Part shown: piece by piece, positions 18,056 to 39,945 of the stretch
How positions within the stretch are numbered: the first letter of the stretch is position 1
How the letters are laid out: each line of letters starts with the position of its first letter
From: an uncultured Methanomicrobia archaeon
GTDB lineage: Archaea; Halobacteriota; Bog-38; Methanoflorentales; Methanoflorentaceae
NCBI GenBank assembly: GCA_964355295.1
Contig: CAYHCZ010000002.1
Span: forward strand, 1-52,311
DNA length: 52,311 nucleotides
Direction: 5' to 3'
Program-made: the position numbers and the translations under genes
The notes under the pieces: model-generated
Database searches by the model: none
What the model was told of the DNA's origin: nothing
The model's input: only the letters and a program-made list of their open reading frames with translations

Positions 18056-18092
18056 AAGAGACTCACCTCGAAGAATGAAACGTTGTCTATAG

Positions 18093-18554: not shown

Positions 18555-18563
18555 AGAAGAATA

Positions 18564-21325: not shown

Positions 21326-21607
21326 GAGTTGTCGCTTCTACTCAAGAGTTATTATAGATGTACGTTGTTATTCATAAGCCAAAACAACTAGCTTCTATAT
21401 GGGCTTCTCTTTTCAAACGAAGCCAATCTTCATCAACCTTGCATGAAATATGTGATCCAATATAAAGACCGAAATGCGCGATTATCGCTCTTAATAGAAC
21501 GCATTATTTGGTTTACTCGCTTGTTCACGGCGCTTGAGGAGATATGCGATTAGGTCTCCGCTTTGCTACCGCTCGCCTTTGATCTTCTCAATATCGGCAG
21601 TCGGGTC

Positions 21608-22545: not shown

Positions 22546-22556
22546 ACAACCGAACT

Positions 22557-22602
22557 GCTTTCTTGTAATTTCGGATAACCCTTTTCAATAGTCTATCATT
22601 TT
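22557..22602. repeat. short third copy of the left end of the dispersed repeat
   Basis: gctttcttgtaatttcggataacccttttcaatagtctatcatttt aligns with 24885-24930, gctttcttgtgattaagatcgtccttttcaatagtttgtcatttc. Confidence 0.5.
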
Positions 22603-22667
22603 AGAAAATGGCTAAAGGAATTGTGATTACTGTTTTTGGGGTTGTGGTGTTTAATCTTTACTGAGCG

Positions 22668-24455
22668 TTACCTTACTGGCGTCATTATATCGAAGAATTC
22701 ATTGTTCCATGCCAGCGTATAGTTATGTGCTGCAATAAACCGCTCCATTACATCCTGGCTTTCAATGGGTTTTGTCTTATCAGGCCAATCAAAGGCACGA
22801 GTGTCAATTTTTGCTCGTACTATCACCGGCAACACACCTTTTTCTTTCAGGGACTGGTTCAAAATATTACTAAATTGATCCGAAGTATACAAGTCCGGCC
22901 AAGAATTATCAAGATAGGGTCTGCTTCCGGTTAAATAATATACCATTGGTATACTTCCAGACGCTAAGACATAATCGTCTTTTTCTACGTAAAGAGGCAG
23001 CTCGTCAACCAAGCCTTGAACAACATGTGCACGTTCTTCAGTCGTAAAAACATACTTCAAATATGGATGTTTCACACTATATCTCATTTCAAACCGGTCT
23101 GAACTATCGCGATAGGTATACTGATACGCACTGATTAATGACAAACTCAAGAAAAAGATGAGAATTAAACACACAACTTTTTTCGTCGGGATTTTTGATA
23201 AGTCTACACTATGTTGTGGCACAATTTTGTTTCCAGTATTTGGACCAAGTCTTAAGTTAAGCCCATTGAATTCCAATAAACATACACCGATAGGTATCGC
23301 AAGCCACATACCATAAATTGCATTTAATACTCCATTACCCGATCCTAATGGTGAGATTACCAACAATAGCAATGCGGTTAATGACAGTAGTGGTAATTGT
23401 TTTTTGTCAGGACTACGCCAAATAATATTTTTCACTAATAAGAGGCACAAAAATCCATACACTACCATAATGACATAACTTCCGACAGGAACTGCAATGA
23501 AGATTGTAATTCCTGTCAGATATATCACGAGTAAAAAGCCAATTGATCCAAATGAAGAACGCGAAGTTAACCAAGAATCTATTTTCGAAATCAGAATAAT
23601 TCCGATTATTGAAATTAATATTAACGAAAACACTAGGAGATGATCCTTGATAAAAAGGGAGAGTAACCCTGTCCCACTATATCTGGATGTTGGGTTCAGC
23701 CCACCATTAACAAATAAATCCAGTATTGAATTGACATATAATCCAAACTGTCCAAGAAAAACAAGTGCTCCACTAATAATGAGTATCGTAATAACAAACC
23801 CTGAAATGAAAAAAAGGGCACTTTTTATCGATTCTTTTACGTTAATCGTATTCCAGTAACCCTGCGCAAAAATACAAAGAACAAGGAGAATTCCGAGAAT
23901 ATTTGAAATCCTGTTGAAGAGATTTAATCCTAAAAAAACACCGGATAGGAGAACAAACTTGTTCTTGTATTCCAACAACCCTCTAATGAGGAAATATGCT
24001 GCGATAACATAGAAGAGCGCAGTTAAGTTGTTATAATTTATCCAAGAGAGACGGATAATAAATAATTCTGCCAAAAAAAGACCGAATAACACATATTCTT
24101 TTTTAAAATACGGTTTAAGAATAAAAAATACAAAAAAAATGGTTGCATACACAATGAATACTGAAGCAAATCTGAACCCGATCAGCCCAAACTCACCAAA
24201 AAAATGTAACCACACACCCCCTAAAAAATTGGTTAACCACTCCGAAAAACCGAATTGGACGGTGGTTGGATTATTAAAAATTTGCTGGGCATTAGTCAAT
24301 GCATACCCCGTATCGGTAAAATCCAGTCCTTGCCAAATCAAAAAAAAAGGAAATAAAATTAACAAAATAAACAAAAAAATTGATAAATTCGAACTTAGTT
24401 TAATCTCATCACGGAGTGCTTTTTTAATATTTAAAAACCAGGCTGTTCTGTCCAT
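22668..24455 (-). CDS. large polytopic membrane protein, candidate GT-C-fold glycosyltransferase or polymerase (family unassigned)
   Basis: 595 aa, at least 12 hydrophobic segments, an acidic first loop (WQGLDFTDTGYALT), and a ~150-aa C-terminal soluble domain. Strongly AT-rich compared with its neighbours. Confidence 0.6.
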   Translation of the reverse strand: MDRTAWFLNIKKALRDEIKLSSNLSIFLFILLILFPFFLIWQGLDFTDTGYALTNAQQIFNNPTTVQFGFSEWLTNFLGGVWLHFFGEFGLIGFRFASVFIVYATIFFVFFILKPYFKKEYVLFGLFLAELFIIRLSWINYNNLTALFYVIAAYFLIRGLLEYKNKFVLLSGVFLGLNLFNRISNILGILLVLCIFAQGYWNTINVKESIKSALFFISGFVITILIISGALVFLGQFGLYVNSILDLFVNGGLNPTSRYSGTGLLSLFIKDHLLVFSLILISIIGIILISKIDSWLTSRSSFGSIGFLLVIYLTGITIFIAVPVGSYVIMVVYGFLCLLLVKNIIWRSPDKKQLPLLSLTALLLLVISPLGSGNGVLNAIYGMWLAIPIGVCLLEFNGLNLRLGPNTGNKIVPQHSVDLSKIPTKKVVCLILIFFLSLSLISAYQYTYRDSSDRFEMRYSVKHPYLKYVFTTEERAHVVQGLVDELPLYVEKDDYVLASGSIPMVYYLTGSRPYLDNSWPDLYTSDQFSNILNQSLKEKGVLPVIVRAKIDTRAFDWPDKTKPIESQDVMERFIAAHNYTLAWNNEFFDIMTPVR

Positions 24456-26271: not shown

Positions 26272-27699
26272 CTAGCGCAGCTCATGTTCGTTTTTATCTC
26301 CTCTGCCGATACCTTTGTATATGAACCCGTTCGCGATAAAGTCATTGGCAGACACAATGTTGCGCCCGTCTACAATGACCGGATGATTGCGACCAGTAAG
26401 CACTTTTAGCTCCTGAGGATCGAGTTGCGAGTATTGGCTGTGGCCAGTCATTATGACAATAACGTCTGCGTCCTGAACAACTTCCTTCAAACTGCTCGAA
26501 ATTGGGAAGTCACTATGTGTAGTAACGTAAGGGTCGTGGATTGAGACGTGAGCCCCTACCTGCGACAGAAGGGTCCAGCACGTCTGCGACGGTGTATCCC
26601 TCACATCGCCTGAATTTTTGGTAAATGCCCACCCCAGCAGGGCTATTTTAGCATCGTTCAGGCCTTTGCCTATTTTCTTGAGCGCCTCCTCAATAAGCTT
26701 GACTACGTGTTTTGGCATAAAGTCATTCACTTCTCTGGCGACTATAAAGAGCGATCTTTCTGATTGGGGATAATCGAGCGGTATTTGAGACTCCTTCACC
26801 CCGAGCTCGAGTAGGTACGTGTCTTTGCTCAGACAGTGACCACCAACTCCGGCACCAGGAGATAGAACGGCGCGCGAGACCCCTTCACCTTTCAGGCTGT
26901 TTATGCCGGTCCGCACATCGTATACGTTGACGCCCATAGCTTCGCAGTAAAGGGCAAGCTCATTTACAGCTGCAATCTGCAAGTCGCGGAATGCATTTTC
27001 GGCAGTTTTCGTAACTTCAGCAGCTTTTGCTGACATAGGAATGACTCTGCCTGTCGTCAGCACACATCTGTACAGTTGGACAGCTCTGTCCGTGCTAGCC
27101 TTGTTGATGCCTCCTACGATTCGATCAAGCTCTTGGATATTACGGAGCAATCGGCCTGCTGCAACGCGTTCTGGCGCGTGTGCGAGGGCGAAATCTTCAC
27201 CTGCGACCATGTTTGACTCCTTCTCAAGCAGGTTTCGGGCAAGTCCTTCCGTGGTACCAGGGGCGACCGTCGATTCAAGCACTACGAGCGTTCCCTGAGT
27301 AATGTGTTTTCCCGCCTCTTGCAGTCCTGCACGCAGTGCGCGGAAATCGTGTTGCAGACTGCGTTTGTCAATGAATGGGGTCTGTATTGTGAACGTTAAC
27401 GCGTCGACTTCAGCTATCTTCGAAAAATCAGATGTGCAGCGGAACTTCTTGCCTTGAACGACTTTTTGGATGAGTTCCTGCAAGCCAGGCTCGTCACCTA
27501 CCAAAGGGTTTTCACCACGGTTGAGCATGTCGATCTTATACCCTGATGAGGGTGAATCTCTTTGAAAGCCCCATACCCATTCAAACGCGCGATCTGCGAA
27601 AAGCATCGCAGAAGGGATACCCACGTAACCCATACCTACGATACCTATCCGCCGTATTGGGCCTTTTGCGTCGAGTATCTGTGCTAATCGTCCCTTCAT
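26272..27699 (-). CDS. wbpA: UDP-N-acetyl-hexosamine 6-dehydrogenase (WbpA/WecC family nucleotide-sugar dehydrogenase)
   Basis: IGIVGMGYVGIPSA (Rossmann), catalytic-Cys region GVGGHCLSKD, C-terminal UDP-binding domain. The ATG at 27699 is preferred over the TTG at 27708. GlcNAc versus ManNAc specificity cannot be decided by eye. Confidence 0.8.
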   Translation of the reverse strand: MKGRLAQILDAKGPIRRIGIVGMGYVGIPSAMLFADRAFEWVWGFQRDSPSSGYKIDMLNRGENPLVGDEPGLQELIQKVVQGKKFRCTSDFSKIAEVDALTFTIQTPFIDKRSLQHDFRALRAGLQEAGKHITQGTLVVLESTVAPGTTEGLARNLLEKESNMVAGEDFALAHAPERVAAGRLLRNIQELDRIVGGINKASTDRAVQLYRCVLTTGRVIPMSAKAAEVTKTAENAFRDLQIAAVNELALYCEAMGVNVYDVRTGINSLKGEGVSRAVLSPGAGVGGHCLSKDTYLLELGVKESQIPLDYPQSERSLFIVAREVNDFMPKHVVKLIEEALKKIGKGLNDAKIALLGWAFTKNSGDVRDTPSQTCWTLLSQVGAHVSIHDPYVTTHSDFPISSSLKEVVQDADVIVIMTGHSQYSQLDPQELKVLTGRNHPVIVDGRNIVSANDFIANGFIYKGIGRGDKNEHELR

Positions 27700-28169
27700 A
27701 AAAACCAACGTGTTTAGGTCATTTAATTGTCTTGATAGTTATCCGTATATGTTTGTTGTTATCAGTAATACACGCTACGCCTACTCAACACACAGCTTGC
27801 TATCATTGATTGCCGTACTGGCCCGGCATGTTTGTCAAAATATGGGCCAAAAAGATCCATTGGCAGATCGTGGGGCAATTTCACGAGTCATAACCTCCGA
27901 GTATGCTTTCAGCGCTACTTGCGAACTCCGAGCCTTTTAGACGCACGATGAGTTTGAAAAACTCGTTGGGCGATAAGCTGTATAATGCATCGCCGCTGAG
28001 TCAAACGGCTTGAGGAATTTCGTTTGCTGCATTGTGTGATTTTACCAAGTTTTTTCTTCGCAAAAACCGCTTAAAAATTCTGCTATACGCTTTGCGTTCG
28101 CGTGTATAGAGTGGTTATTTTTGAAGAGGCTATCGAAGCGATGATCCTTAAAAAAAGTGTTTAGCCTCA

Positions 28170-28733
28170 TTATTGCTGTTGGCGAACTGTTACGGTTCGT
28201 CCACAATCGCATTCAAACACGTGCCCGCTTTCGGCTCGGACCGCTTTGTGCAATTTCTGTCCGCAGTAGCAAACATACCCCCTTAAATGTGCCGGGCTCC
28301 CGTACGCCAACCCAAATGGCGAAATACTCTTTGTGACGACGCTTCCTGCGCCGATCATGGCGTACTCCCCAATTGATACGCCGCAAATGACGGTCGAATT
28401 AGCGCCAATACTGGCTCCTTTCTTGACGAATGTGGACGTTATCTTCTCGCTTTCCCATATGAATGACCGTGGGTACAGATCGTTCGTGAAGGTAACAGAG
28501 GGGCCTATAAAAACATCATCATCCACGCGCACACCTTTATATATTGATACGAAATTTTGGATCTTGACTCGGTCTCCGATGATGACATCCTCATCAATAT
28601 AGGTGCTTTTGCCGATAACGCAGTTGCTTCCGATTGACGCGCCGTCTCTGATGTGAACAAAATGCCATATTTTTGACCCGTCGCCTATTGCATCGCTCTC
28701 CACTACTGCGGTGGCGTGTTTGTAGTAACTCAT
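28170..28733 (-). CDS. wbpD: UDP-2-acetamido-3-amino-2,3-dideoxy-glucuronate N-acetyltransferase-like (WbpD/WlbB hexapeptide transferase)
   Basis: IWHFVHIRDGASIGSNCVIGKSTYI..VKIQNFVSIYKGVRVDDDVFIGPSVTFTNDLYPRS..GASIGANSTVICG. There is an extra Cys-rich tail, CYCGQKL..CDCG. Confidence 0.8.
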   Translation of the reverse strand: MSYYKHATAVVESDAIGDGSKIWHFVHIRDGASIGSNCVIGKSTYIDEDVIIGDRVKIQNFVSIYKGVRVDDDVFIGPSVTFTNDLYPRSFIWESEKITSTFVKKGASIGANSTVICGVSIGEYAMIGAGSVVTKSISPFGLAYGSPAHLRGYVCYCGQKLHKAVRAESGHVFECDCGRTVTVRQQQ

Positions 28734-29173: not shown

Positions 29174-30274
29174 TCAACTACGTAACGTGTCCAAATACTC
29201 GTTGATAATCGTGCAGACGTATTCGAGATCCTCGACCGTCAATCCCGGATGGACGGGCAAGCTCACAAGACAATCGGCTAATTCCAAAGCAGTAGGGCAC
29301 TGGACGTTTTCGTCTGTATACCCAAGTTCGGCGTATAGGGGTTGTCTGAATATCGGGGTAGGGTAGTGAATCGCACACCTGATACCGTTACTCGCTAGAT
29401 GGCGAATAAAAGCTTCTCGTTCCACGATATCAATATCTAATGTGAGTGCGTACTGGTTGTAGACGTGAGTCACGTCCTTAGCGGTAAAAGGCGTGACCAA
29501 GCCGTCTGCGTGGATGTACTTGTTTAAGTAAGCAGCATTGCGCCTCCTTGTAAGGTTGAACTTGTCAAGTTTTTTCAGTTGCACTTGCCCGAGAGCCGCT
29601 TGAATGTCTGTCATCCGATAATTGTATCCAAGCAGCGTGTGGGTATACTTCGAAGTCTGTCCGTGATCTCTGAGCAAATTAACGACGTTGGCTGCTTGTT
29701 CATCATCCATCGTCACCATGCCACCTTCTCCTGTTGTCATGTTCTTCGTTGGGTAGAAAGAGAAGCAGCCGACTCCAAAGCTTCCGACCTTTTTGCCGCG
29801 ATATTCAGCTCCGTGAGCCTGAGCACAGTCTTCGACTAAAATGAGCTTGTTTTCGTCACAGACCTCTTGGATTGCTGTGATATCAAAAGGATGCCCGAAC
29901 AAGTGCACACCCAGGATCGCCTTAGTCTTGGCTGTAACCTTGACAGCTGCATCGTCAGGATTTATATTGAAAGTCTTTCTGTCAACATCAGCGAAAACGG
30001 GCCGCGCTTTTTGGAACAAAATGCAGTTCGCAGTCGCAATAAAAGAGAACGGTGTTGTAAGTACCTCATCGCCCTGCTTAATGCCTAAAGCTTTGAGTGT
30101 GACATCTAACGCTGCCGTGCCGTTACTCACGGCGATAGCGCGTCTCACACCAACGTATCTAGCAAATTGGTATTCAAATAGAGCGACTGCTTCACCTTGT
30201 GCAAGCGTGCCAGATCGTATCACCGACTCAATTGCTTTAATCTCGTCGTCACCTACCTGCGGCCTTGCTATCAT
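29174..30274 (-). CDS. wbpE: DegT/DnrJ/EryC1-family sugar aminotransferase (WbpE-like)
   Basis: MIARPQVGDDEIKAI.., AVSNGTAALD, FSFYPTKNMTTGEGG (PLP lysine present). The ATG at 30274 is chosen; the 47-codon upstream extension in the ORF track lacks homology features. Confidence 0.85.
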   Translation of the reverse strand: MIARPQVGDDEIKAIESVIRSGTLAQGEAVALFEYQFARYVGVRRAIAVSNGTAALDVTLKALGIKQGDEVLTTPFSFIATANCILFQKARPVFADVDRKTFNINPDDAAVKVTAKTKAILGVHLFGHPFDITAIQEVCDENKLILVEDCAQAHGAEYRGKKVGSFGVGCFSFYPTKNMTTGEGGMVTMDDEQAANVVNLLRDHGQTSKYTHTLLGYNYRMTDIQAALGQVQLKKLDKFNLTRRRNAAYLNKYIHADGLVTPFTAKDVTHVYNQYALTLDIDIVEREAFIRHLASNGIRCAIHYPTPIFRQPLYAELGYTDENVQCPTALELADCLVSLPVHPGLTVEDLEYVCTIINEYLDTLRS

Positions 30275-30622
30275 AATGTTTTTTTGCACAGTGCTCACCA
30301 AGTATCTGACAAACGCGGTGGCGATGAAAGATTCTTCTTTGATTGACAGATAGTGCATCAGCTTAAATATATATGAACTTTTAACTTGTATTGGTAGTTT
30401 GCTAACATATGTCAAAAAAAAGAAAGAGATTGTGAAAGAATCCTTTAGAAAAGCTAGATCACAGATATATAGTCTGCAAGGTCGAGCACAATCCTGTTTA
30501 TGCGAGTTACAAACTGTTTTTAGGGAGTAAGATGAAAATAGGGTGTGGCATAACAGAGAGCTTTTGGCAATTTGTCACGTTCAAGCTCAGCTTGTAACGA
30601 CCCCGTTAAATTGAGGCGCAAG

Positions 30623-31561
30623 ATGAGAATTGGCATCATCGGTACTGGAGTGATGGGTAAGAATCATATCAGAATCTATTCTGATCTTAGAGGTGTGGAT
30701 GAACTGTTGGTCTATGATAACAACGAAAATAGCATTCACAGTCTAAATGAATTCGATTTAACGATCTGTGAATCACTGGAGCAATTAATTAACTGCTCAG
30801 AGGCAGTAAGCATTTGTGTTCCCACGCAACATCACTTTACGGTCGCACGCAGCGTCATTGAAGAGAACGTGCCGTGCTTGATAGAAAAGCCAATTACTTC
30901 ATCTGCGGATGAAGCGAAGGAACTCGTGAGCTGTTTACAGGGTCGAAAACTCGTCGTCGGTGTAGGGCATGTTGAACGCTTTAACCCGGTCGTCGCAGAA
31001 ATAGCGAAGATTATTGAGAATCCATTCTTTGTGGAAGCACGGCGACACAACCCCTCATCGCTGAGGATAACCGATAGCTCAGTGGTAGAGGATTTGATGA
31101 TTCACGATGTCGACATTGTCTTCAACGTTCTCTTTGATCGCAGTCAATACGCAGTTTACAGCGCCGGGAATGAAAATGTATGCAAGGCAGTGATTACGTT
31201 CGAAGGATCAATCGTCTCCCTTTCAGCAAGCAGGTTAGCGTGCAAAAAAACCCGATCGATCTACATTGAGGATGAACAGTTTACGGTTGAGGGAGATTTG
31301 ATGACTCAGGAGGTTTACAGGTACAACCGCCCAGAAAAATTCAGCGTGCAAGACGAAAAGTACAGACAAGAGAACATCGTCGAAAAAGTGCTCGTCAACA
31401 AAGTCGAGCCGTTGGCGCTGGAACTAAGAACGTTCGTCAATTGTGTCAGAAGGGGAGTCGAGTTCCCCGTTACTCCCAGACAGGCTCTTGCCAACATGGC
31501 AGTTTGCCAGCAGATACAAGATGTTCTTAAGCGTAAGCAACCTCTTGCAGGCCCGATATAG
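30623..31561 (+). CDS. wbpB: Gfo/Idh/MocA-family oxidoreductase (WbpB-like 3-dehydrogenase)
   Basis: MRIGIIGTGVMGKNHIRIY, CLIEKPI, GHVERFNP. Divergent from wbpE. Confidence 0.8.
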   Translation: MRIGIIGTGVMGKNHIRIYSDLRGVDELLVYDNNENSIHSLNEFDLTICESLEQLINCSEAVSICVPTQHHFTVARSVIEENVPCLIEKPITSSADEAKELVSCLQGRKLVVGVGHVERFNPVVAEIAKIIENPFFVEARRHNPSSLRITDSSVVEDLMIHDVDIVFNVLFDRSQYAVYSAGNENVCKAVITFEGSIVSLSASRLACKKTRSIYIEDEQFTVEGDLMTQEVYRYNRPEKFSVQDEKYRQENIVEKVLVNKVEPLALELRTFVNCVRRGVEFPVTPRQALANMAVCQQIQDVLKRKQPLAGPI

Positions 31562-31565
31562 AATA

Positions 31566-32642
31566 ATGAAGATCGTAAGCATAGTCGGAGCGCGGCCTCA
31601 ATTTATTAAGTACGAACCTCTCTCACGAGAGATACGACAAAAGCACGAAGAGATAATCGTGCATACAGGCCAGCATTACGATCCTCAAATGTCGATCGTC
31701 TTTTTTGAAGAACTTCAGATCCCGCGCCCAGAATACACCCTAGATATCGGGTCAAGCAGCCACGGAGAGCAGACCGGGAGAATGCTCATCGAAATTGAAA
31801 AGGTTCTAACGAAGGAATCTCCTGATCTAGTTCTCGTTTACGGGGATACCAACTCTACGATCGCTGGAGCGCTCGCGGCAGCCAAACTCAACGTTAGCGT
31901 TGCACACATCGAGGCAGGGTTGCGCAGTTTCGATCGTGACATGCCCGAAGAGATTAACCGGATAGTGACCGACCATTTGTCAGCGCTGCTTTTTTGTCCG
32001 ACTCAAACGGCAATCGACAATCTCTCTAAGGAGGGTATCACGAAGGGCGCTTATTTGGTCGGCGATGTAATGGCAGACGCACTCGTGCATAACCTTGAAG
32101 TGGCCAATCATTCTTCGCGGATACTCGAATTATTGGAGTTAGACAATTGTAACTACTTAGTCCTAACGATACATCGACCGAACAACACCGACAACCAAGA
32201 GAACTTAAGTAACATCATAGAGGCAGCAGGTGTACTGGATCGTCTCGTGGTATTTCCCGTGCATCCGCGCACCAAGAGATACTTGCAAGAATATGGCATC
32301 TGGGACGCCATGCCGAAGAACATAAAAAAGGTACAGCCTCTTGGATATCTTGATATGCTCAAACTCATGGCCAATGCAGATAAAATACTCACTGATTCAG
32401 GTGGGATGCAGAAAGAGGCATTTATGCTCGATGTTCCCTGTATCACCTTGAGAGAGACCACTGAATGGGTGGAGACCCTTACCGACGGACGAAACGTATT
32501 AGTTGGGGCGAATAAGACTCGTATTATTCAGATGGCATCTAGAAACCTCGTTGCGGGCACAAGTCGGAGAGCTGTGTTTGGTACAGGAGCGTGCAAGCGG
32601 ATAGCTAACGTCTTAGAAAGAGATACACAAACTCTTGCTTGA
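31566..32642 (+). CDS. wbpI: UDP-N-acetylglucosamine-type 2-epimerase, non-hydrolysing (WecB/WbpI family)
   Basis: MKIVSIVGARPQFIK, HTGQHYD, VYGDTNST, HIEAGLRSFDR.MPEEINR, TDSGGMQKEA. The ATG at 31566 lies 4 nt after the wbpB stop. Confidence 0.85.
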   Translation: MKIVSIVGARPQFIKYEPLSREIRQKHEEIIVHTGQHYDPQMSIVFFEELQIPRPEYTLDIGSSSHGEQTGRMLIEIEKVLTKESPDLVLVYGDTNSTIAGALAAAKLNVSVAHIEAGLRSFDRDMPEEINRIVTDHLSALLFCPTQTAIDNLSKEGITKGAYLVGDVMADALVHNLEVANHSSRILELLELDNCNYLVLTIHRPNNTDNQENLSNIIEAAGVLDRLVVFPVHPRTKRYLQEYGIWDAMPKNIKKVQPLGYLDMLKLMANADKILTDSGGMQKEAFMLDVPCITLRETTEWVETLTDGRNVLVGANKTRIIQMASRNLVAGTSRRAVFGTGACKRIANVLERDTQTLA

Positions 32643-32724: not shown

Positions 32725-33984
32725 ATGGGGACACGGTCACGATACCTCGTCGCAGCCTTTTGGGCTGGGCTCATTCTCGTCTCCTGCACTGCGGGATGTA
32801 CGTCGCTGACTACTGATAGTAGGCAGGCATCGGCCATCGTTAAAACCGGTCAATTAACGGTTGGTTACTCTCCTGACAAAACGCTCAGGAATGAGATATC
32901 GTACAATGAAAGGATAAAAAAAGCCGAAACGATACTTAACGTTTCAGATTACGCATGTTCGTTATGTCAAAAGGGCTCGATTTCGCCTCAGGATTATACA
33001 AAGTATTCCCTGATTATATTTGAATATTCTCAGTTGTTAAAGAAATATGCCGGATTGCCCGAAAGGAATAATGAATATATCGACCTATCTTATGTTTCAG
33101 ATACTCTGCAGCAAAGTTACGACCAGAATATTCTTACACCACAACGGTTGCATAATATCGTCAATATGATGGAAATAAATTATCATTATTTTCTCAATAA
33201 CGCGTCCCCGAAATCTGTGCAAGAGATGGATTTTCCGGGTGACAATCTGATGTGGTTGTATTATCCAGGCAAAGGAATTCAATTCCAGCCTGTAAGTACA
33301 CTATTTGAGCTTCAATCTAAATATAAGGGAGGGGAATATCAGCAATTTTTAGATGGAATTAACGAATTTATTCAATACGGAGACAGGATTATTCTTGAAA
33401 ATCGCATTTGTCTGGTATGGGAATACAATTTCTACGTTTATGACAATGCCAGCTATGTTAAGCTCGGCATTAATTCCCCCCATTTCTGGATATCGGGCAT
33501 GGCGCAAGGATTGGCGATCCAAACACTCGGGTATGCGTATAACATCACTGGGGATACGTGCTACCTAAGAAACGCAGAGTGTGCGATGCAACCATTGTTT
33601 GTCAACTGGACAAAAGGCGGTGTGACCGATTTTCATCCTTCTCATAATGGCACTTGGTATCTCGAATACGCGTACACGAATAAAATACGCGTTTTAAATG
33701 GTTTTTTATACACATTGATTGCGCTTCATGATTACTATAAAATCACAAATAATGCAGATGCACTCTGCTTGTTTAAAATGGGTGTCAATGACCTTGTCGT
33801 GCATTTGAAGCAATATGATACGGGAGATTGGTCCGCATATTCCTTAACATCCGGGAGCGCCAATTTGTTTTACCATAAGATTCACATTGATTTATTGAGA
33901 ACATTGTATGGAACCACTAGCAATTCGACTATCAAATATTATGCAGATCTGTTTCAAAAATATCTTGAAAGCGAACAAAGATAG
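32725..33984 (+). CDS. putative lipoprotein with a D-glucuronyl C5-epimerase C-terminal domain (GLCE-like)
   Basis: Signal and lipobox MGTRSRYLVAAFWAGLILVSC. C-terminal blocks WISGMAQGLAIQTL, VLNGFLYTLIALHDYY, YDTGDWSAYSL and YHKIHIDLLRTL parallel animal GLCE blocks WISAMAQGQAIS, VLNGFMYSLIGLYD, YDTGSGTIYDL and YHTTHINQLQLL. Confidence 0.75.
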   Translation: MGTRSRYLVAAFWAGLILVSCTAGCTSLTTDSRQASAIVKTGQLTVGYSPDKTLRNEISYNERIKKAETILNVSDYACSLCQKGSISPQDYTKYSLIIFEYSQLLKKYAGLPERNNEYIDLSYVSDTLQQSYDQNILTPQRLHNIVNMMEINYHYFLNNASPKSVQEMDFPGDNLMWLYYPGKGIQFQPVSTLFELQSKYKGGEYQQFLDGINEFIQYGDRIILENRICLVWEYNFYVYDNASYVKLGINSPHFWISGMAQGLAIQTLGYAYNITGDTCYLRNAECAMQPLFVNWTKGGVTDFHPSHNGTWYLEYAYTNKIRVLNGFLYTLIALHDYYKITNNADALCLFKMGVNDLVVHLKQYDTGDWSAYSLTSGSANLFYHKIHIDLLRTLYGTTSNSTIKYYADLFQKYLESEQR

Positions 33985-34197: not shown

Positions 34198-35697
34198 CTA
34201 GAACCCCACCAAATGCTTGAAAGTCTTGAAAATCCCGCGAATTATGTTTTTGTCAGCATCCGAAAAAGCCCTCAAAACAAAGAGAGCCAAAAGATAAATA
34301 GCGAAACTCAATCCCGCATAAAGGAATATTCTTGATGTTTCTCCGGTAGTTACTAAGAATAAAGGTAGGGCCATCACAATGCTTGCTGTGATGCATTTGC
34401 TTATAAAAATAAAATCAAGATGATAATCAACCTCTCTTTGAGCCCACAGAGTTACAAAGATAGCTAGACTGAAATATGCTAGAAGTGTAGAGATGGCGCC
34501 GCCCATGATTCCGATTATAGGAATAAGGGCAATATTAAGACCTATATTAATAGCAGCACTGACTGCACATATTACTGGTATCCATTTTGTTTTTTTGGCT
34601 AAGAGGATAATAAATTGATTGATTTGGTAAATGCCTAGCATTAGTGTTCCGATAGCAACGAGTAAGGTGAGCGTGCCTCCGATCGCAAATTCCGCTGTAG
34701 TGAGACTTGTGAGCAACTGTTTCGAGAAGAAGAAAAGCCCTACAGATGCTGGCACTGCTAGAAGCAGAAAGAGCTTCGTGGAGTATTCCATATAAAGCTT
34801 AACCCTTGACATATCCTGAAGTTCCCAGTATCTAGAAATTGTGGGGTAGAGAACGTAGCTTATGGGTGTATAAAAAATTGCAGTAAAGGCACCAACGTTA
34901 TACGAAGCAGAGTATATACCAACTTGGGCTATGCCAAGATAATACACTATGAAATATCGGTCACTAGATTGTAAGATCCATAGAATTAAGCCTTGGGGTA
35001 TTTGCGGGACGCTGAAGCCCAAGTACTCTTTTGCACGCGATATTGAAGGTAGCGACAGACCTGTCTCTCTGGAAACTAACCCAAACAATACTGCGACAAA
35101 TGTAAGCTCAACAAGAATTTGCGAAAAAATCACTATTATGAGGGGATAGCCTAATATTGGAAGTGTTATGACGAGTGCTAACTTGATCATAGATGCACAT
35201 TGTGAAAAAATAGAGAGCTTTTTTATCCTACGTTTTGCCCGGAAGTAAGATAGGAGAAAACTGAATAAGGCACTCGTTCCAGCCCACGATAACATAAGCG
35301 GAATAAACGCTGAATAGTTCGTGCTATTAAAAACAATGATCGAAAATGCATTTCTCAGGAATAGAGAGGCTAATAATACTGGAACTAGAAATGCAATTAT
35401 TGTCCAAAACATAGAGGCAAATGCTTTGCCAAGGATACTTCTATCGTCTTCCGCGGCTAGATATCGAACTGTTGCAGTACTTAGATGAAGATTTAAAATA
35501 GGAGTCAGTAACCCGACCGTTATGACTATTTGAGTCCATACGCCATACAATTCAGTCCCATAATTTTTTGTTAAAGATGGGAGGGTAAAAATCGCGAAAA
35601 GCTGGACGATTATATTCGATGCCCCGACCCAAACGATATCACTCGCAAATTTGAAGCGTTCTCGTTGAGGTTCAGATTGAGGCGTCGGGTTTTTCAT
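34198..35697 (-). CDS. wzx: Wzx-type oligosaccharide flippase (MOP/polysaccharide biosynthesis protein family)
   Basis: About 14 TM segments. N-terminal IVWVGASNIIVQLFAIFTLPSLTKNYGTELYGVW pattern. The ATG at 35697 is preferred over the TTG at 35724. Confidence 0.75.
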   Translation of the reverse strand: MKNPTPQSEPQRERFKFASDIVWVGASNIIVQLFAIFTLPSLTKNYGTELYGVWTQIVITVGLLTPILNLHLSTATVRYLAAEDDRSILGKAFASMFWTIIAFLVPVLLASLFLRNAFSIIVFNSTNYSAFIPLMLSWAGTSALFSFLLSYFRAKRRIKKLSIFSQCASMIKLALVITLPILGYPLIIVIFSQILVELTFVAVLFGLVSRETGLSLPSISRAKEYLGFSVPQIPQGLILWILQSSDRYFIVYYLGIAQVGIYSASYNVGAFTAIFYTPISYVLYPTISRYWELQDMSRVKLYMEYSTKLFLLLAVPASVGLFFFSKQLLTSLTTAEFAIGGTLTLLVAIGTLMLGIYQINQFIILLAKKTKWIPVICAVSAAINIGLNIALIPIIGIMGGAISTLLAYFSLAIFVTLWAQREVDYHLDFIFISKCITASIVMALPLFLVTTGETSRIFLYAGLSFAIYLLALFVLRAFSDADKNIIRGIFKTFKHLVGF

Positions 35698-35969
35698 ATT
35701 CGTTCGTGCTACGTGATCATCCAATCATGTTTATCGTAGGAAGGAAGGGACGCACTAAAGTTCTAACGCGAAAACTTGCTATTTACGCTAGTTGAAGCTC
35801 TTATGCCAAGTTAGGACCTGCAACTCTCCCACTGCCCGTGAACTATCATAACCAATCCAAGTGTAGGTGATGTGCGATGAGGATGAAAAAATCACATAAA
35901 TTGCGCGTTTTCGTGGCTCATTCAAACGTCCATGCCTCCATGCTCCCCTTAAAGATAATAGATTGTCAG

Positions 35970-37238
35970 TTATGACCCCACTTCGCGTATGTCATTTGTG
36001 CTTTTTCTTATCACGCCCGCGAAAACTTTTGCTAGTTCCCTTGTGAGGTTCTTTCTCTCAAAGCGAACAGAATATTCTTTCAACCCATCTGGATTTACAG
36101 GATCGTCTCCTCTTTGCCATTTATGATATGCAGCAATAATATTGTCGGAGATCTCGTCCACACTGTTGGAGGTGATAACGCAACTGTGTGGTGAGTACTT
36201 TCGCACTAGTCTCGCAAGAGTACCCTCGCGAACTATGGCGAGAATCGGTCTTCCGGTTGCCAGATACTCGTACACTTTCTGTGTAAGCGCATTGGTTAAC
36301 TCTATCAGAAGTAGTATGGAAGACGATGCAGCGCACGATAGGGCCTGTTCATACGGCACTTGTCCAGTAACAGTGCAGATTGTCTGAAGACCATAGTGCG
36401 TAAAATCCTTAACTAGCCGCTGCCCTTTTGGTCCTATGAATAAGACCTGTATCTCTTCTTCTTTAATGGCTCCTCTGTCAATTACATCCCGGAGAGCTTC
36501 AAGAAATAGCCGATAGGGTCGATGGCCTGAGCCAACTAGAGATCCTGTATACGTGATGGTAAACTTCTCAAATTTGGCCGGCGGTTGTTTGAAGTCTGCC
36601 GAGTCAAATCCATTACATATAGTCGTAATCTTGTCTTTTACTTCTGGATAAGCTATCGAATAGCCTTGCGCCATCGGGGGGGTTGCAGTAATTATTTGGT
36701 CAGCTTCCCTCAAAATGTGTCTTTCCAGCTGCTGGTCAATACTTTGGTGAAATCGAGAGGGGTAGCTCATAACTGGATCTTGAAGGAGGGTCCAAGGATC
36801 TCGAAAATCGATGACTAAAGGAATGTGAGTCCTTCTCTTAAGCAGATATCCAACGATCGTGGCACTCATAGGGGGACTTGAAACATAAATCAAATCAATG
36901 TCATCGGTGTGACATATATTCAAACCTTTGATATATGCAGTAGGCACCCATCCGACGAGCGGATCAGGCAAGAGAAACAATCGAGGACTAATTCCGAACT
37001 TGAGGAAATAGTAAACAAATTCGAAATGCAAAATGGCAGGAGTGCATACTGTTTTGATGGACTCCGGATTGACATAGCCCCTTTTGCTCGCGACGCTGCG
37101 AAACCCTCTGGATTCAGCAAGGATTGTTGGACTAAATCCAAATAAGGGTAGATACTTGCAGAACTTACCCGTTCTGAGAGTTCCATGATAATCAATTGTT
37201 AAGACTTTTTTCACACTACTAGCCGATTGTGATATCAT
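35970..37238 (-). CDS. glycosyltransferase family 4
   Basis: 422 aa, GT-B layout: DLIYVSSPPMSA..IDFRDPW in the N-domain; TYTGSL....LFIGPKG...LLLIE....KVYEYLATGRPILA in the C-domain. Confidence 0.7.
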   Translation of the reverse strand: MISQSASSVKKVLTIDYHGTLRTGKFCKYLPLFGFSPTILAESRGFRSVASKRGYVNPESIKTVCTPAILHFEFVYYFLKFGISPRLFLLPDPLVGWVPTAYIKGLNICHTDDIDLIYVSSPPMSATIVGYLLKRRTHIPLVIDFRDPWTLLQDPVMSYPSRFHQSIDQQLERHILREADQIITATPPMAQGYSIAYPEVKDKITTICNGFDSADFKQPPAKFEKFTITYTGSLVGSGHRPYRLFLEALRDVIDRGAIKEEEIQVLFIGPKGQRLVKDFTHYGLQTICTVTGQVPYEQALSCAASSSILLLIELTNALTQKVYEYLATGRPILAIVREGTLARLVRKYSPHSCVITSNSVDEISDNIIAAYHKWQRGDDPVNPDGLKEYSVRFERKNLTRELAKVFAGVIRKSTNDIREVGS

Positions 37239-38136: not shown

Positions 38137-39945
38137 TCAAGGTTGTGGCGTCAGATACCACGTATCAAAGCCTCCGTTTGAAAATACCTTGTTAAGCGTC
38201 GTATCATTCTCCATCCTGCTAAAGTCTTCAGGCAGAATTCTTTTTGAAGCAATCTCTGGATATACATCCACGTACACTCGCTTGCTTTGTTCGGAAAACG
38301 CAACGTAAGTGTCTTTCCAGACGGTCTGCCCCATTTTAGTATAGTTATCGTAGCCGAGGTGTGGCGGAACTTCCTTTACATAGAACTGGTCTGGATAATA
38401 CATAAGATCCGATCGTGCGCTCGAGCCATTTTGGGGCTTGTCCGGCAGCAGCCACAGAAACCGCCAAGGCGTAAAGACAACACCTCCCGTGAGTCCCTTA
38501 AAATCTACTTGGGGCACTGTTTTCTCCAGGAACCACAGATTGCCAGAGACTTCCGCATTTGTCGTCTGCAGCGTTGGCGAGCGGGTAAGCGTTGACGGAT
38601 AGAGGATCAGCATGCCGTTTACGGACACAGCAACGATCAACGCGCATGTTACGACGATGTTAATGGCTTTTCCGTTCTTTTTAAACATAAGCCGCTGTTT
38701 GAACTCATAGAGCACAAAGCCGACAAAAACGGCGCTGAGTGTTAATATAAAACAAAGAACCCGAAACGGGCTAACTATTTGAGCGAAAAACAAGGGCACA
38801 TAAACTGCAATAATCAGAACATACCCTCCAAACAACCCCTTAAGCTTCAACAGATCTTCGCCTTGCGACAATCGCTTCCACACAAGAACGAAAGCGACTG
38901 TCGAGAGCGCTATGTAGAGTGCGGTACCGCCGTACAACTTCAGTATTAGCTCGTATATGTTGTAGCCAAATCCCTGCGCCGCTGCTGCCAAGTCTGCATA
39001 AGAGGATATGTATGGTATTGTGCGGTACCTCCCCAACACTTTCTGCAGAGTGTGCGTAAGTATATACGTACGCGAAAGCCACCCGAATAACAAGGCAACA
39101 AAAAGCAACGCTAAGCTCCTGCTTGCCGTTAACCGTTTGAGGGTTCGGTCTGACCCGTGAAAAGGCGTTTTGAAACGTTGGAAAAGCCAGACACCTAATA
39201 AGAGCGCCAAGAGAGTTATAGCTCCAAGCGGGTGCAAAATCGCGCTGAAGACTGTCAGAATGATCGCGAGCAACGTGCAGGAATTCTTGCTTCTGCCTGC
39301 TGAATGAAAAACGATGTACGCGATAAACGGAAAAAACCACACGAGAACGGCGAACGGCGTCATAAAAGGGGAGGTGACGAGTAGTGGTATCCCTGCTAAT
39401 GCTGCGAGTATTGCTTGCTCGTTACGCGCCACCACGGTTTTTGCCAAGAGATAGACCGATGCCATAAAAAACGCATTAAAAAAAGCGGGGAGATAGTCAA
39501 ATATATCTAGAAGGGCGATGCCGGTGAAGTTATGCAGGGTTGCCATGTAATAGTGCATTAGCGGATAATAATTGCGAGAACCTGCGTGTCCCCAGGTGAG
39601 TAAATAGCTCACCGAGTAGAGATGGTTCCCAACATCTCCGGTTATATTAAGTAGATAACCCCTGAGCGCAAATACAAGAACAACGACCACTGCGCTAAAA
39701 GCTGCAATGCTAAGACCGAGGATCGGAAATCTGCTTTTGCAGCCTCTATTATATAGTGAGCTGACGGTAACGTAGACGCCGCACAACGTGCTTAGTGTAA
39801 GAGCGATCCAAACGAAAACTGGCGTGCTTTCATAGATTGAAGCCTCATACCCTGTTGCCTGTGAGTTGTAAGCGAGCGCTATTGCTAGGGTAATCAGTGC
39901 GAAACTGACAATTGAGATCGTTTTGAGAACTCTGTAGCTTCCCAT
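38137..39945 (-). CDS. large polytopic membrane protein with a C-terminal extracytoplasmic domain; candidate GT-C enzyme or glycan polymerase (family unassigned)
   Basis: 602 aa, about 13 hydrophobic segments, then a ~150-aa soluble tail (TLQTTNAEVSGNLWFLEK...). No WWDYG motif, so it is not a canonical AglB/STT3. Confidence 0.6.
   Translation of the reverse strand: MGSYRVLKTISIVSFALITLAIALAYNSQATGYEASIYESTPVFVWIALTLSTLCGVYVTVSSLYNRGCKSRFPILGLSIAAFSAVVVVLVFALRGYLLNITGDVGNHLYSVSYLLTWGHAGSRNYYPLMHYYMATLHNFTGIALLDIFDYLPAFFNAFFMASVYLLAKTVVARNEQAILAALAGIPLLVTSPFMTPFAVLVWFFPFIAYIVFHSAGRSKNSCTLLAIILTVFSAILHPLGAITLLALLLGVWLFQRFKTPFHGSDRTLKRLTASRSLALLFVALLFGWLSRTYILTHTLQKVLGRYRTIPYISSYADLAAAAQGFGYNIYELILKLYGGTALYIALSTVAFVLVWKRLSQGEDLLKLKGLFGGYVLIIAVYVPLFFAQIVSPFRVLCFILTLSAVFVGFVLYEFKQRLMFKKNGKAINIVVTCALIVAVSVNGMLILYPSTLTRSPTLQTTNAEVSGNLWFLEKTVPQVDFKGLTGGVVFTPWRFLWLLPDKPQNGSSARSDLMYYPDQFYVKEVPPHLGYDNYTKMGQTVWKDTYVAFSEQSKRVYVDVYPEIASKRILPEDFSRMENDTTLNKVFSNGGFDTWYLTPQP

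What the first reader, a model, noticed from the sequence alone, without database searches (positions are those of the whole stretch)
32725..33984. A lipoprotein-type homologue of heparan-sulfate D-glucuronyl C5-epimerase, co-oriented directly after the uronic-acid pathway
Seen in sequence: there is a signal peptide with lipobox (LILVSC). The C-terminal ~200 aa aligns block for block with animal GLCE: WISGMAQGLAIQ, VLNGFLYTLIALHD, YDTGDWSAYSL and YHKIHIDLL.

Established knowledge: this domain epimerises GlcA to IdoA at the polymer level. Only a few prokaryotic homologues have been examined.

Inference: an exported, membrane-anchored copy lies 82 nt after wbpI in a probable archaeon. This suggests post-export C5 epimerisation of uronic acid residues in a surface glycan, possibly the diacetamido-uronic acid made next door. 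That would yield L-ido or L-gulo-configured residues that cannot be predicted from the nucleotide-sugar genes. The ~200-aa N-terminal half has no features I recognise.
Basis: partly seen in the sequence, partly recalled or inferred. Interest (0 to 1): 0.65.

Follow-up and report, generated by a model that had tools for sequence, protein, structure and literature searches.

The report
Lipid-anchored archaeal uronic-acid C5-epimerase homologue

Summary
The gene starts 82 nt after a WecB/WbpI-type 2-epimerase gene.

- **Family:** Pfam C5-epim_C scores 138.6 bits (cut-off 23.3). Human and zebrafish GLCE are the only significant PDB sequence hits and the best fold hits (rmsd 1.8 A).
- **Catalytic residues:** all five GLCE residues (E499, Y500, N510, Y560, Y578) are conserved, as E314, Y315, N325, Y372 and Y383.
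- **N-terminal half:** the "unrecognised" part is a signal peptide with lipobox, a disordered roughly 35-residue tether, and four long helices. The helices are shared with some bacterial homologues. There is no animal-type beta domain.
- **Location:** about 73% of homologues have a hydrophobic N-terminus, so a location outside the cytoplasm is a family trait.
- **Context:** the gene sits in a 52-kb glycan island beside a complete UDP-ManNAc3NAcA-type gene set and a Wzx flippase. The same pairing recurs in distant archaea and bacteria, but not everywhere.

Most likely the enzyme epimerises uronic-acid residues at C5 after export, plausibly ManNAc(3NAc)A to L-gulo. The substrate is inferred, not shown. 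Such homologues, with their signal peptides, were listed in 2011; no archaeal one has been tested. This is a new member of a known kind, of moderate interest.

The parts
32725..33984 (+). Gene for a 419-aa GLCE-family (PF06662) hexuronyl C5-epimerase homologue
   Evidence: ORF. Pfam C5-epim_C 138.6 bits. PDB hits are GLCE only. AF2 model has pLDDT 87.8 and pTM 0.84.
32725..32784 (+). Signal peptide (residues 1-20): n-region MGTRSRY with two Arg, then h-region LVAAFWAGLILV
   Evidence: The only hydrophobic segment of the protein, at residues 7-25. Modelled as a short helix, residues 7-16. Conserved in P0002 and P0284.
32776..32787 (+). Lipobox L18-V19-S20-C21; Cys21 (nt 32785-32787) is the predicted lipidated residue
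   Evidence: PS51257 rule met at Cys21 in the query and in P0002. The motif definition [L/V/I][A/S/T/V/I][G/A/S]C and the prevalence of archaeal lipoproteins come from PMC12462473.
32788..32886 (+). Disordered Thr/Ser-rich tether (residues 22-54)
   Evidence: pLDDT below 50 for residues 18-54. Composition: 7 Thr and 4 Ser in 37 residues.
32902..33198 (+). Four long helices (residues 60-158) preceding the conserved barrel; they stand where animal GLCE has its beta-hairpin and beta-sandwich domains
   Evidence: Helices 60-82, 88-109, 112-133 and 139-158, with pLDDT above 93. No Pfam hit even at E<=10. Many bacterial homologues align from query residue about 62-85.
33469..33957 (+). C5-epim_C domain (residues 249-411), the helical catalytic core
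   Evidence: Foldseek best hits are 6hzz and 4pxq, rmsd 1.7-1.9 A over 171-174 columns, 32-33% identity.
33664..33669 (+). E314-Y315, equivalent to human GLCE E499-Y500
   Evidence: Alignment, with numbering derived from Y578F in 6i01. Catalytic list from PMC13308652. In 163 family members E is found in 122 and Y in 133.
33697..33699 (+). N325, equivalent to human GLCE N510
   Evidence: N in 162 of 163 family members.
33838..33840 (+). Y372, equivalent to human GLCE Y560
   Evidence: Y in 162 of 163.
33871..33873 (+). Y383, equivalent to human GLCE Y578
   Evidence: this position aligns with the residue that is mutated to F in 6i01. Y in 162 of 163.
30572..31561 (+). WbpB-type GFO/IDH/MocA oxidoreductase (UDP-GlcNAc(A) 3-dehydrogenase-like), first gene of the co-oriented run
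   Evidence: Pfam GFO_IDH_MocA. Best NCBIfam hit is the archaeal UDP-GlcNAc 3-dehydrogenase, 167 bits, below the equivalog cut-off.
31566..32642 (+). WbpI/WecB-type non-hydrolysing UDP-HexNAc 2-epimerase; its ATG lies 4 nt after the wbpB stop
   Evidence: TIGR00236 wecB 321 bits, above the cut-off of 210. Start and stop checked. Some relatives are labelled UDP-GlcNAc3NAcA epimerase by JGI.
29174..30415 (-). WbpE-type DegT aminotransferase (divergent from wbpB)
   Evidence: Pfam DegT_DnrJ_EryC1, 400 bits.
28170..28733 (-). WbpD-type hexapeptide N-acetyltransferase
   Evidence: Pfam Hexapep; NeuD/PglB/VioB subfamily.
26272..27708 (-). NDP-sugar 6-dehydrogenase (WbpA/WecC type); the only uronic-acid-forming enzyme found in the window
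   Evidence: TIGR03026 324 bits, above cut-off. Best specific hit is the archaeal UDP-ManNAc dehydrogenase, 298 bits, below its cut-off.
34198..35724 (-). Wzx-type flippase, convergent with the epimerase gene
   Evidence: Pfam Polysacc_synt and MurJ. 13 TM-like segments.
35970..37238 (-). GT4 glycosyltransferase
   Evidence: GT4 genes flank C5-epim_C in many related loci.
38137..39945 (-). 602-aa polytopic membrane protein with no family match; candidate Wzy-like polymerase (inference only)
   Evidence: About 12 TM-like segments. No Pfam or NCBIfam hit. Wzy_C genes lie next to C5-epim_C in the related loci L084, L092 and the P0014 locus.

Best explanation
The gene encodes a catalytically competent member of the GLCE (PF06662) family of hexuronyl C5-epimerases. 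The protein is exported through Sec. It is lipid-anchored through Cys21 to the outer face of the archaeal membrane and held on a roughly 35-residue flexible tether. Outside the cell it acts on uronic-acid residues already built into a glycan: a flipped lipid-linked unit, a growing polymer or a finished glycoconjugate. By analogy with GLCE, a Glu/Tyr pair (E314 and Y383, assisted by Y315, N325 and Y372) abstracts the C5 proton next to the carboxylate and re-adds it from the other face. The favoured substrate is the 2-acetamido- or 2,3-diacetamido-D-mannuronic acid residue supplied by the adjacent WbpA/B/D/E/I-type genes. Epimerising it would give L-gulo-configured residues, possibly non-stoichiometrically. 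Shown in silico: family membership, catalytic residues, fold, signal peptide with lipobox, and gene context. Inferred: lipidation, timing after flipping, and substrate identity.
For: - **Family:** Pfam C5-epim_C E=2.2e-40. GLCE structures are the only PDB sequence hits and the best Foldseek hits (rmsd 1.8 A, 33% identity), on a confident model (pLDDT 87.8).
- **Catalytic residues:** all five GLCE residues listed in PMC13308652 align with identical residues. They are near-invariant in 163 homologues.
- **Export:** the PS51257 lipobox rule is met at Cys21 and conserved in orthologues. 105 of 144 full-length homologues have a hydrophobic N-terminus and 12 have a lipobox. Raedts 2011 also noted signal peptides in this family.
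- **Context in the window:** a co-oriented wbpB-wbpI-epimerase run with gaps of 4 and 82 nt, a full Wbp-type set, the only NDP-sugar 6-dehydrogenase of the window, and a Wzx next door.
- **Recurrence elsewhere:** C5-epim_C lies among WbpB/D/E(/I/A) genes in L030, L034, L024 and L084-L086. It is adjacent to or near WecB in L001/L082 and the P0014 locus, and in 5 of 8 archaeal loci.
- **Chemical precedent:** ManNAcA is proposed to be C5-epimerised to L-GulNAcA on a lipid-linked intermediate in V. cholerae VPS, by an unrelated protein (PMC13463779).
Against: - No biochemical data exist for this protein or for any archaeal PF06662 member.
- The only tested prokaryotic member acted on a heparosan-type GlcA substrate (Raedts 2013, as cited in PMC13308652). 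No GLCE-family enzyme is known to accept 2-acetamido or 2,3-diacetamido uronates.
- Most related loci (about 70 of 80) show no Wbp-type neighbour within 10 kb.
- Methanoperedens-type genomes carry the same Wbp cluster without any C5-epim_C gene, so the two are separable.
- An AsnB-like amidotransferase in the island (5633-7507) could amidate the carboxylate, and that would block C5 epimerisation.
- SignalP/LipoP was not run, and archaeal lipidation has been demonstrated experimentally only in haloarchaea.
- Co-transcription across the 82-nt gap was not shown.
Confidence: 0.55

Rival explanations
1. The enzyme and location are the same, but the substrate is classical. It converts D-glucuronic acid to L-iduronic acid in a GlcA-containing surface glycan or GAG-like polymer whose UDP-GlcA supply is encoded elsewhere. 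Its position next to the Wbp genes only reflects membership of one large glycan island.
For: Every characterised GLCE-family enzyme (animal GLCE and the Bermanella enzyme) acts on GlcA. The IdoA-containing O-antigen clusters of E. coli O112ab and S. boydii 15 carry PF06662 homologues. Most homologous loci lack Wbp-type neighbours. The island is large, with many glycosyltransferases.
Against: No UDP-glucose 6-dehydrogenase was found in the 52-kb window. The single NDP-sugar dehydrogenase is closest to UDP-ManNAc dehydrogenases. The gene lies directly downstream of wbpB-wbpI. Wbp/WecB co-location recurs in several unrelated lineages.
Confidence: 0.25
2. The protein uses the same C5 proton abstraction chemistry but is not an epimerase. 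It acts instead as a uronate-directed lyase, or only binds uronic-acid glycans, to remodel or turn over the cell envelope.
For: C5 proton abstraction is shared by epimerases and polysaccharide lyases (established knowledge; some alginate epimerases are bifunctional). Weaker Foldseek hits cover alpha/alpha-barrel glycoside hydrolases and 2-epimerases.
Against: The full GLCE catalytic set is conserved, including both the proton-abstracting and the re-protonating residues. No lyase is known in PF06662. The gene sits in a biosynthetic cluster, not a catabolic one.
Confidence: 0.07
3. The N-terminal hydrophobic segment is a membrane anchor with the catalytic domain inside, or is not cleaved or lipidated. 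Epimerisation then happens on the cytoplasmic face, on a lipid-linked intermediate before further glycosyl transfer, as proposed for VpsJ.
For: VpsJ is proposed to act on a lipid-linked disaccharide before later cytoplasmic steps. No signal-peptide predictor was run here. P0011, P0012 and about a quarter of homologues lack a hydrophobic N-terminus.
Against: Positive charges (R4, R6) precede the hydrophobic core and a conserved canonical lipobox follows it. A disordered Thr/Ser-rich tether after the Cys is typical of lipoproteins. Animal GLCE is lumenal, which is topologically outside (established knowledge).
Confidence: 0.06

Closest known systems
Animal heparan-sulfate D-glucuronyl C5-epimerase GLCE (human 6HZZ/6I01/6I02, zebrafish 4PW2/4PXQ)
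   Same: It has the same Pfam domain. The helical catalytic core superposes at 1.8 A rmsd with 33% identity. All five catalytic residues are identical. It has an N-terminal membrane anchor with the catalytic domain on the non-cytoplasmic side.
   Different: It has no beta-hairpin or beta-sandwich domain; four helices stand in their place. The anchor is a lipobox lipid anchor rather than a type II transmembrane helix. It is 419 aa against about 617 aa. The dimerisation element is missing. No heparosan-type synthesis genes are nearby.
Bermanella marisrubri RED65_08024, the only biochemically tested prokaryotic PF06662 enzyme (Raedts 2013, cited in PMC13308652)
   Same: It is a prokaryotic GLCE homologue of similar size (448 aa in PMC3068255) with the same C-terminal domain.
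   Different: It is bacterial and was tested on a eukaryote-type GlcA substrate. Its native substrate and context are unknown to me. I did not compare the sequences directly.
Putative archaeal and bacterial D-glucuronyl C5-epimerases catalogued in silico (Raedts 2011, PMC3068255); PGAP name 'D-glucuronyl C5-epimerase family protein'
   Same: The architecture is the same: an N-terminal signal peptide plus a C-terminal pfam06662 domain. The occurrence is strain-specific and inside surface-glycan clusters. Archaeal members include Methanocaldococcus, Methanothermobacter, Thermococcus and Korarchaeum.
   Different: This copy comes from a Methanoperedens-like lineage that is not in that list. It carries a lipobox and a 4-helix N-terminal extension. 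Only three sequences of this exact subtype are in the public data searched.
Halobacterium salinarum Agl32 (VNG1058H), the first archaeal GlcA C5-epimerase shown genetically (PMC12624080, PMC13308652)
   Same: It is archaeal and performs glycan-level C5 epimerisation of a uronic acid in a surface glycan. It has an all-helical barrel fold.
   Different: It belongs to a different family (AglQ/AGE-like). It has none of the GLCE catalytic residues and was not found by BLAST with GLCE. The window protein is GLCE-type.
Vibrio cholerae VpsJ (PMC13463779)
   Same: It is proposed to convert D-ManNAcA, made by WecB/WecC-type enzymes, to L-GulNAcA after incorporation into a lipid-linked glycan in a Wzx/Wzy pathway. 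This is the same chemistry as the favoured reading here.
   Different: It is unrelated by sequence, according to its authors. It acts before the later glycosyl transfers, so presumably on the cytoplasmic side. I did not compare it with the query.
Mannuronan C5-epimerases AlgG and AlgE of alginate biosynthesis
   Same: They perform polymer-level, extracytoplasmic D-manno to L-gulo uronate epimerisation.
   Different: They have a right-handed beta-helix fold (established knowledge). The present protein is modelled as a helical barrel.

Membership tests
GLCE / PF06662 D-glucuronyl C5-epimerase family | C5-epim_C domain above Pfam's gathering score | tested here: met
   138.6 bits against a cut-off of 23.3, residues 249-411, covering profile positions 19-187 of 188.
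GLCE / PF06662 D-glucuronyl C5-epimerase family | Catalytic residues E499, Y500, N510, Y560 and Y578 (human numbering) | tested here: met
   They align with E314, Y315, N325, Y372 and Y383. The residue list is from PMC13308652. They are conserved across 163 homologues.
GLCE / PF06662 D-glucuronyl C5-epimerase family | Helical catalytic domain with the GLCE fold | tested here: met
   The predicted model (pLDDT 87.8) has 6hzz and 4pxq as best PDB matches: E about 1e-8, rmsd 1.7-1.9 A over 171-174 columns. This is a prediction, not a solved structure.
GLCE / PF06662 D-glucuronyl C5-epimerase family | N-terminal beta-hairpin (dimerisation) and beta-sandwich domains of animal GLCE | tested here: not met
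   Residues 60-158 are modelled as four helices. Residues 22-250 have no Pfam hit even at E<=10. These domains define the animal enzymes, not the Pfam family.
GLCE / PF06662 D-glucuronyl C5-epimerase family | Membrane-anchored, with the catalytic domain on the non-cytoplasmic side | tested here: met
   Signal peptide plus lipobox, by sequence rules only. 73% of homologues have a hydrophobic N-terminus.
GLCE / PF06662 D-glucuronyl C5-epimerase family | GlcA to IdoA conversion at polymer level | not testable with these tools
   This needs an enzyme assay (D2O or tritium exchange, NMR).
Prokaryotic lipoproteins (lipobox proteins) | Signal peptide ending in [LVI][ASTVI][GAS]C, following PROSITE PS51257 | tested here: met
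   L18-V19-S20-C21. Rule implemented. Motif as given in PMC12462473. Conserved in P0002 and P0284.
Prokaryotic lipoproteins (lipobox proteins) | Actual lipidation and cleavage (AliA/AliB-dependent in archaea) | not testable with these tools
   No aliA/aliB search was possible, because the rest of the genome is not available.
Agl32/AglQ-type archaeal uronate epimerases | AGE-like barrel lacking the GLCE catalytic residues | tested here: not met
   The query has all the GLCE catalytic residues. AGE-type 2-epimerases are only weak fold matches (E about 3e-3, rmsd 5-12 A). The Agl32 sequence itself was not compared.
Alginate-type mannuronan C5-epimerases (AlgG/AlgE) | Right-handed parallel beta-helix fold | tested here: not met
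   The model is mainly helical with short hairpins. There is no such Pfam hit.

The most novel reading that the evidence does not exclude
Many prokaryotic GLCE-family enzymes, this one included, may not be glucuronyl epimerases. They may instead act outside the cytoplasm to convert glycan-bound 2-acetamido- or 2,3-diacetamido-D-mannuronic acid into the L-guluronic forms (L-GulNAcA, L-GulNAc3NAcA). That would give the GLCE fold a new substrate class. It would also supply a missing enzyme for these rare L-gulo sugars, and it would predict such residues on the surface of a Methanoperedens-like archaeon.
Probability: 0.3. Interest if true: 0.6.

Novelty: new member of a known kind. Interest (0 to 1): 0.4.

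Why it matters
No GLCE-type C5-epimerase from Archaea has been characterised. The one archaeal uronate C5-epimerase known, Agl32, belongs to another family.

A confidently modelled, catalytically intact, surface-tethered copy right after a UDP-ManNAc3NAcA-type operon gives a concrete, testable candidate for two things. One is how L-configured uronic acids arise in archaeal surface glycans. The other is whether the GLCE fold accepts acetamido-uronates.

It also serves as a warning for glycan prediction. Final sugar stereochemistry cannot be read from nucleotide-sugar genes alone when such an exported tailoring enzyme is present. The practical pay-off is modest unless the substrate turns out to be new.

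Tried and rejected
- **Orthologue context:** I tried to fetch the 40,959-nt NCBI contig that carries the 90% WecB orthologue (P0165) and apparently also the epimerase orthologue P0284. Both look-ups returned nothing. Conservation of the wbpI-epimerase adjacency in the sister genome therefore rests only on the equal contig lengths.
- **Other close relatives:** the contigs for P0002 (1312 nt) and P0003 (1409 nt) are too short to give context. A metagenome scan with the P0001-P0003 alignment found only the P0003 contig.
- **Window genome:** the genome-contig scan did not contain the window's own genome; the best match was 39% identical.
- **N-terminal half:** Pfam at E<=10 found nothing for residues 22-250 and nothing for the 602-aa membrane ORF.
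- **Literature:** a text search for PF06662 found no paper. Qin 2015 and Raedts 2013 are not held. Substrate-contact residues beyond the five catalytic ones could therefore not be mapped, and the bacterial enzyme is cited second-hand.
- **Promoter scan:** I did not use the sigma-70 promoter/terminator scan, because the organism is probably archaeal.
- **Rejected readings:** a pseudo-enzyme, because the catalytic residues are intact; a beta-helix alginate-type epimerase, because the fold is wrong; an Agl32-type enzyme, because the residue set is different.
Full report
**Observation.** The ORF at 32725..33984 (+) is real and 419 aa long. The gene begins exactly 82 nt after the stop of the upstream 2-epimerase gene. 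The likeness to GLCE is far beyond chance. Pfam C5-epim_C scores 138.6 bits (E=2.2e-40, cut-off 23.3) over residues 249-411. A phmmer search of all PDB sequences returns only human GLCE (6hzz, 1.5e-15; 6i01) and zebrafish GLCE (4pw2, 2.7e-14). NCBIfam has no model for it.

**Anatomy of the protein.** An AlphaFold2 model built on 35 homologues is confident: mean pLDDT 87.8, pTM 0.84. It shows:
- a short N-terminal helix (residues 7-16), which is the signal-peptide core;
- a disordered stretch at residues 18-54, with pLDDT below 50;
- four long helices at 60-82, 88-109, 112-133 and 139-158;
- a helical domain with short hairpins, running to residue 415.

Foldseek against the PDB puts human and zebrafish GLCE first: E about 1e-8, rmsd 1.7-1.9 A over 171-174 columns, 32-33% identity. 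Weak matches follow (E about 3e-3 and worse) to alpha/alpha-barrel cellobiose 2-epimerases and GH76 mannanases. These cover 250-330 columns.

It is a signal peptide, a tether and extra helices. These appear to complete a helical toroid; that last point is inference from the longer weak matches and the high pTM. It has no Pfam match even at E<=10 and lacks the animal beta-hairpin and beta-sandwich domains. Part of it is shared with others. In an exhaustive HMMER search, many homologues align from query residue about 62-85 onward, for example P0018, P0023, P0030, P0050, P0056 and P0144. In the genome-contig scan the loci that match from about residue 80 are mostly from Solirubrobacterales and Thermoleophilaceae.

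**Catalytic residues.** A 2026 paper lists the key GLCE residues as E499, Y500, N510, Y560 and Y578 (PMC13308652). I derived the numbering from the alignment, in which the Y578F mutant chain 6i01 differs from 6hzz at exactly the aligned Tyr. On that numbering the five residues correspond to E314, Y315, N325, Y372 and Y383 of the query, and all are identical. In a MAFFT alignment of 163 family members the counts are N in 162, Y372 in 162, Y383 in 162, E314 in 122 and Y315 in 133.

**Export and anchoring.** The N-terminus MGTRSRY-LVAAFWAGLILV-SC has two Arg, a hydrophobic core, and L18-V19-S20-C21. It meets the PROSITE PS51257 rule as I coded it. It also meets the lipobox definition [L/V/I][A/S/T/V/I][G/A/S]C used for archaea (PMC12462473). 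That paper reports that lipoproteins are prevalent in Euryarchaeota and mostly Sec-dependent outside the haloarchaea. The orthologues P0002 and P0284 (86-89% identical) keep the motif as LVAC at the same position, although nearby residues differ.

No other of the 31 large ORFs in the window has a lipobox, and the nucleotide-sugar enzymes have no hydrophobic segment. A location outside the cytoplasm is a family trait. Of 144 homologues that start with Met, 105 have a strongly hydrophobic N-terminus and 12 have a lipobox. Raedts et al. noted predicted signal peptides in 2011. The closest archaeal group (P0004-P0008) has an N-terminal anchor and also a C-terminal hydrophobic tail. I could not run SignalP or LipoP, and lipidation itself is inferred.

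**Gene context in the window.** The whole 52 kb is a surface-glycan island. Around the gene lie:
- an NDP-sugar 6-dehydrogenase, 26272-27708 (-);
- a hexapeptide acetyltransferase, 28170-28733 (-);
- a DegT aminotransferase, 29174-30415 (-);
- divergently, a GFO-type oxidoreductase, 30572-31561 (+);
- a WecB-type 2-epimerase, whose likely ATG at 31566 is 4 nt after the previous stop;
- the C5-epimerase homologue;
- convergently, a Wzx flippase (34198-35724), a GT4, and a 602-aa polytopic protein without any family match.

The first five are the families of the WbpA/B/D/E/I route to UDP-ManNAc3NAcA (established knowledge of P. aeruginosa, and of the Methanococcus acetamido-sugar pathway). None reaches an equivalog cut-off apart from the generic wecB and NDP-sugar dehydrogenase models. 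The exact products are therefore inferred. The dehydrogenase is the only uronic-acid-forming enzyme I found in the window, and it is closest to UDP-ManNAc dehydrogenases.

**Related loci.** The exact subtype (lipobox plus four helices) is rare. I found only P0002 and P0284 (86-89%) and P0003 (46%), all without usable context. The family is large: 3250 clusters at E<=1e-3. Among more distant relatives the pairing with acetamido-uronate genes recurs:
- In a Halobacteriota MAG the C5-epim_C gene is directly followed by a WecB gene.
- In a bacterial cluster, one of whose members is named Acetomicrobium, the order is Wzz, initiating transferase, sugar dehydrogenase, hexapeptide/DegT fusion, GFO, GT4, C5-epim_C, Wzy, further glycosyltransferases, WecB.
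- In bacterium HR37 the gene is followed by GFO, hexapeptide and DegT genes.
- In an Aminicenantes MAG it is followed by GT4, WecB, GT4, GFO, hexapeptide and DegT.
- A Thermoplasmata MAG has DegT, a dehydrogenase and WecB within 10 kb.
- The P0014 locus reads Wzx, Wzy, C5-epim_C..., WecB, GT4..., AsnB-like.

Of 8 archaeal loci, 5 have a WecB-type gene within 10 kb; of 72 bacterial loci, 3 do. This is descriptive and has no matched control. The link is not universal. About 70 of the 80 loci show no Wbp-type neighbour. Methanoperedens-type genomes carry the wbpE-B-D-A...wbpI cluster and a Wzx gene but no C5-epim_C gene. The epimerase therefore looks like an optional tailoring add-on.

**Organism.** The neighbouring WecB protein has its best named relatives, at 64-68% identity, in Ca. 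Methanoperedens, Methanoregula and Methanosarcinales. A DUF1616 gene is present, and the best specific NCBIfam hits are archaeal models. "Probable archaeon" is therefore supported, most likely a Methanoperedens-related member of Halobacteriota. The genome itself was not found.

**What is known.** Raedts et al. (2011, PMC3068255) listed PF06662 homologues in many bacteria and in Korarchaeum, Methanothermobacter, Methanocaldococcus, Methanococcus voltae and Thermococcus. They noted strain-specific occurrence and an architecture of signal peptide plus pfam06662 domain. Only one bacterial member has been tested (Raedts 2013, as cited). The first archaeal glucuronyl C5-epimerase, Hbt. salinarum Agl32, was identified in 2025. 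It is AGE-like, lacks the GLCE catalytic residues and is not found by BLAST with GLCE. A GLCE-type archaeal enzyme therefore remains uncharacterised. For the chemistry there is a recent precedent: V. cholerae VpsJ is proposed to epimerise lipid-linked D-ManNAcA to L-GulNAcA. Its authors see it as a new class of epimerase. Alginate AlgG is the classical periplasmic manno-to-gulo epimerase.

**Mechanism proposed.** The nucleotide-sugar enzymes make a 2-acetamido- or 2,3-diacetamido-mannuronic acid donor in the cytoplasm. Glycosyltransferases build a lipid-linked unit, and Wzx flips it. The lipid-tethered epimerase, swinging on its roughly 35-residue linker at the membrane surface, then inverts C5 of uronate residues through the GLCE-type Glu/Tyr acid-base pair. 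The carboxylate is essential for this step. The result would be L-gulo residues that cannot be read from the nucleotide-sugar genes. Shown here, in silico: family, residues, fold, targeting signal and context. Inferred: lipidation, timing and substrate.

**Rivals.**
- The same enzyme acting on GlcA supplied from elsewhere (confidence about 0.25).
- A lyase or glycan-binding role (about 0.07).
- Action on the cytoplasmic face, if the signal prediction is wrong (about 0.06).

**Verdict.** The protein is a new member of a known, catalogued but experimentally neglected kind. The lipobox, the helical N-terminal extension and the recurrent Wbp/WecB neighbourhood are the points worth a wet-lab test. 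I rate interest as moderate (0.4).

Noticed in passing
window 8472-11556, 14095-15165 and 17084-19427 (- strand): This looks like a CDP-hexose pathway. It has a Glc-1-P cytidylyltransferase (343 bits, cut-off 300), a CDP-glucose 4,6-dehydratase-like SDR, and RfbH (689 bits, cut-off 423). RfbH overlaps a ThDP acetolactate-synthase-like gene, and there is one more SDR. Together these suggest a 3,6-dideoxy or branched-chain (yersiniose-type) sugar in an archaeon.
   Followed up: no
window 16129-24455 (- strand): A GT2 with C-terminal TM segments, a GtrA-like protein and two polytopic PMT_2/GT-C proteins form a module typical of glycosylation outside the membrane from a lipid-phosphate sugar. It is a second sign of post-export glycan tailoring in the island.
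   Followed up: partly
window 38137-39945 (-): A 602-aa ORF has about 12 TM-like segments and no Pfam or NCBIfam match even at E<=10. Its position beside Wzx and GT4 genes suggests a divergent Wzy-like polymerase.
   Followed up: partly
window 31443-31566: The mechanical ORF for the WecB/WbpI gene starts at a GTG (31443) that overlaps wbpB by 119 nt. The family match begins at the ATG at 31566, 4 nt after the wbpB stop, so wbpB and wbpI are probably tightly coupled.
   Followed up: yes
window 775-849 (+): A tRNA-Arg(CCG) lies at the left edge of the glycan island, next to a region of higher GC (0.51 against about 0.39-0.49 over the rest of the window). It may mark an island boundary or integration site.
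   Followed up: no
L089 559-13294; L091 1605-9544: Methanoperedens-type genomes carry wbpE-wbpB-wbpD-dehydrogenase ... wecB ... Wzx without any C5-epim_C gene. Toxin-antitoxin genes (CopG-like, HEPN/NTase, HicAB) are inserted between the sugar genes.
   Followed up: no
window 5633-7507 (-) and 49540-50262 (-); L087 2295-3607; L092 10103-11442: An AsnB-like amidotransferase and a WbqC-like gene lie in the island. PIG-L plus WbqC pairs sit next to C5-epim_C genes in two related loci, and an AsnB-like gene is present in the P0014 locus. This hints at further uronate or aminosugar tailoring that travels with this epimerase family.
   Followed up: no
P0004-P0008 (alignment A1): The closest archaeal 344-aa homologues have both an N-terminal hydrophobic anchor and a C-terminal hydrophobic tail after the catalytic domain. 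This is a different way of holding the same domain at the membrane surface.
   Followed up: no
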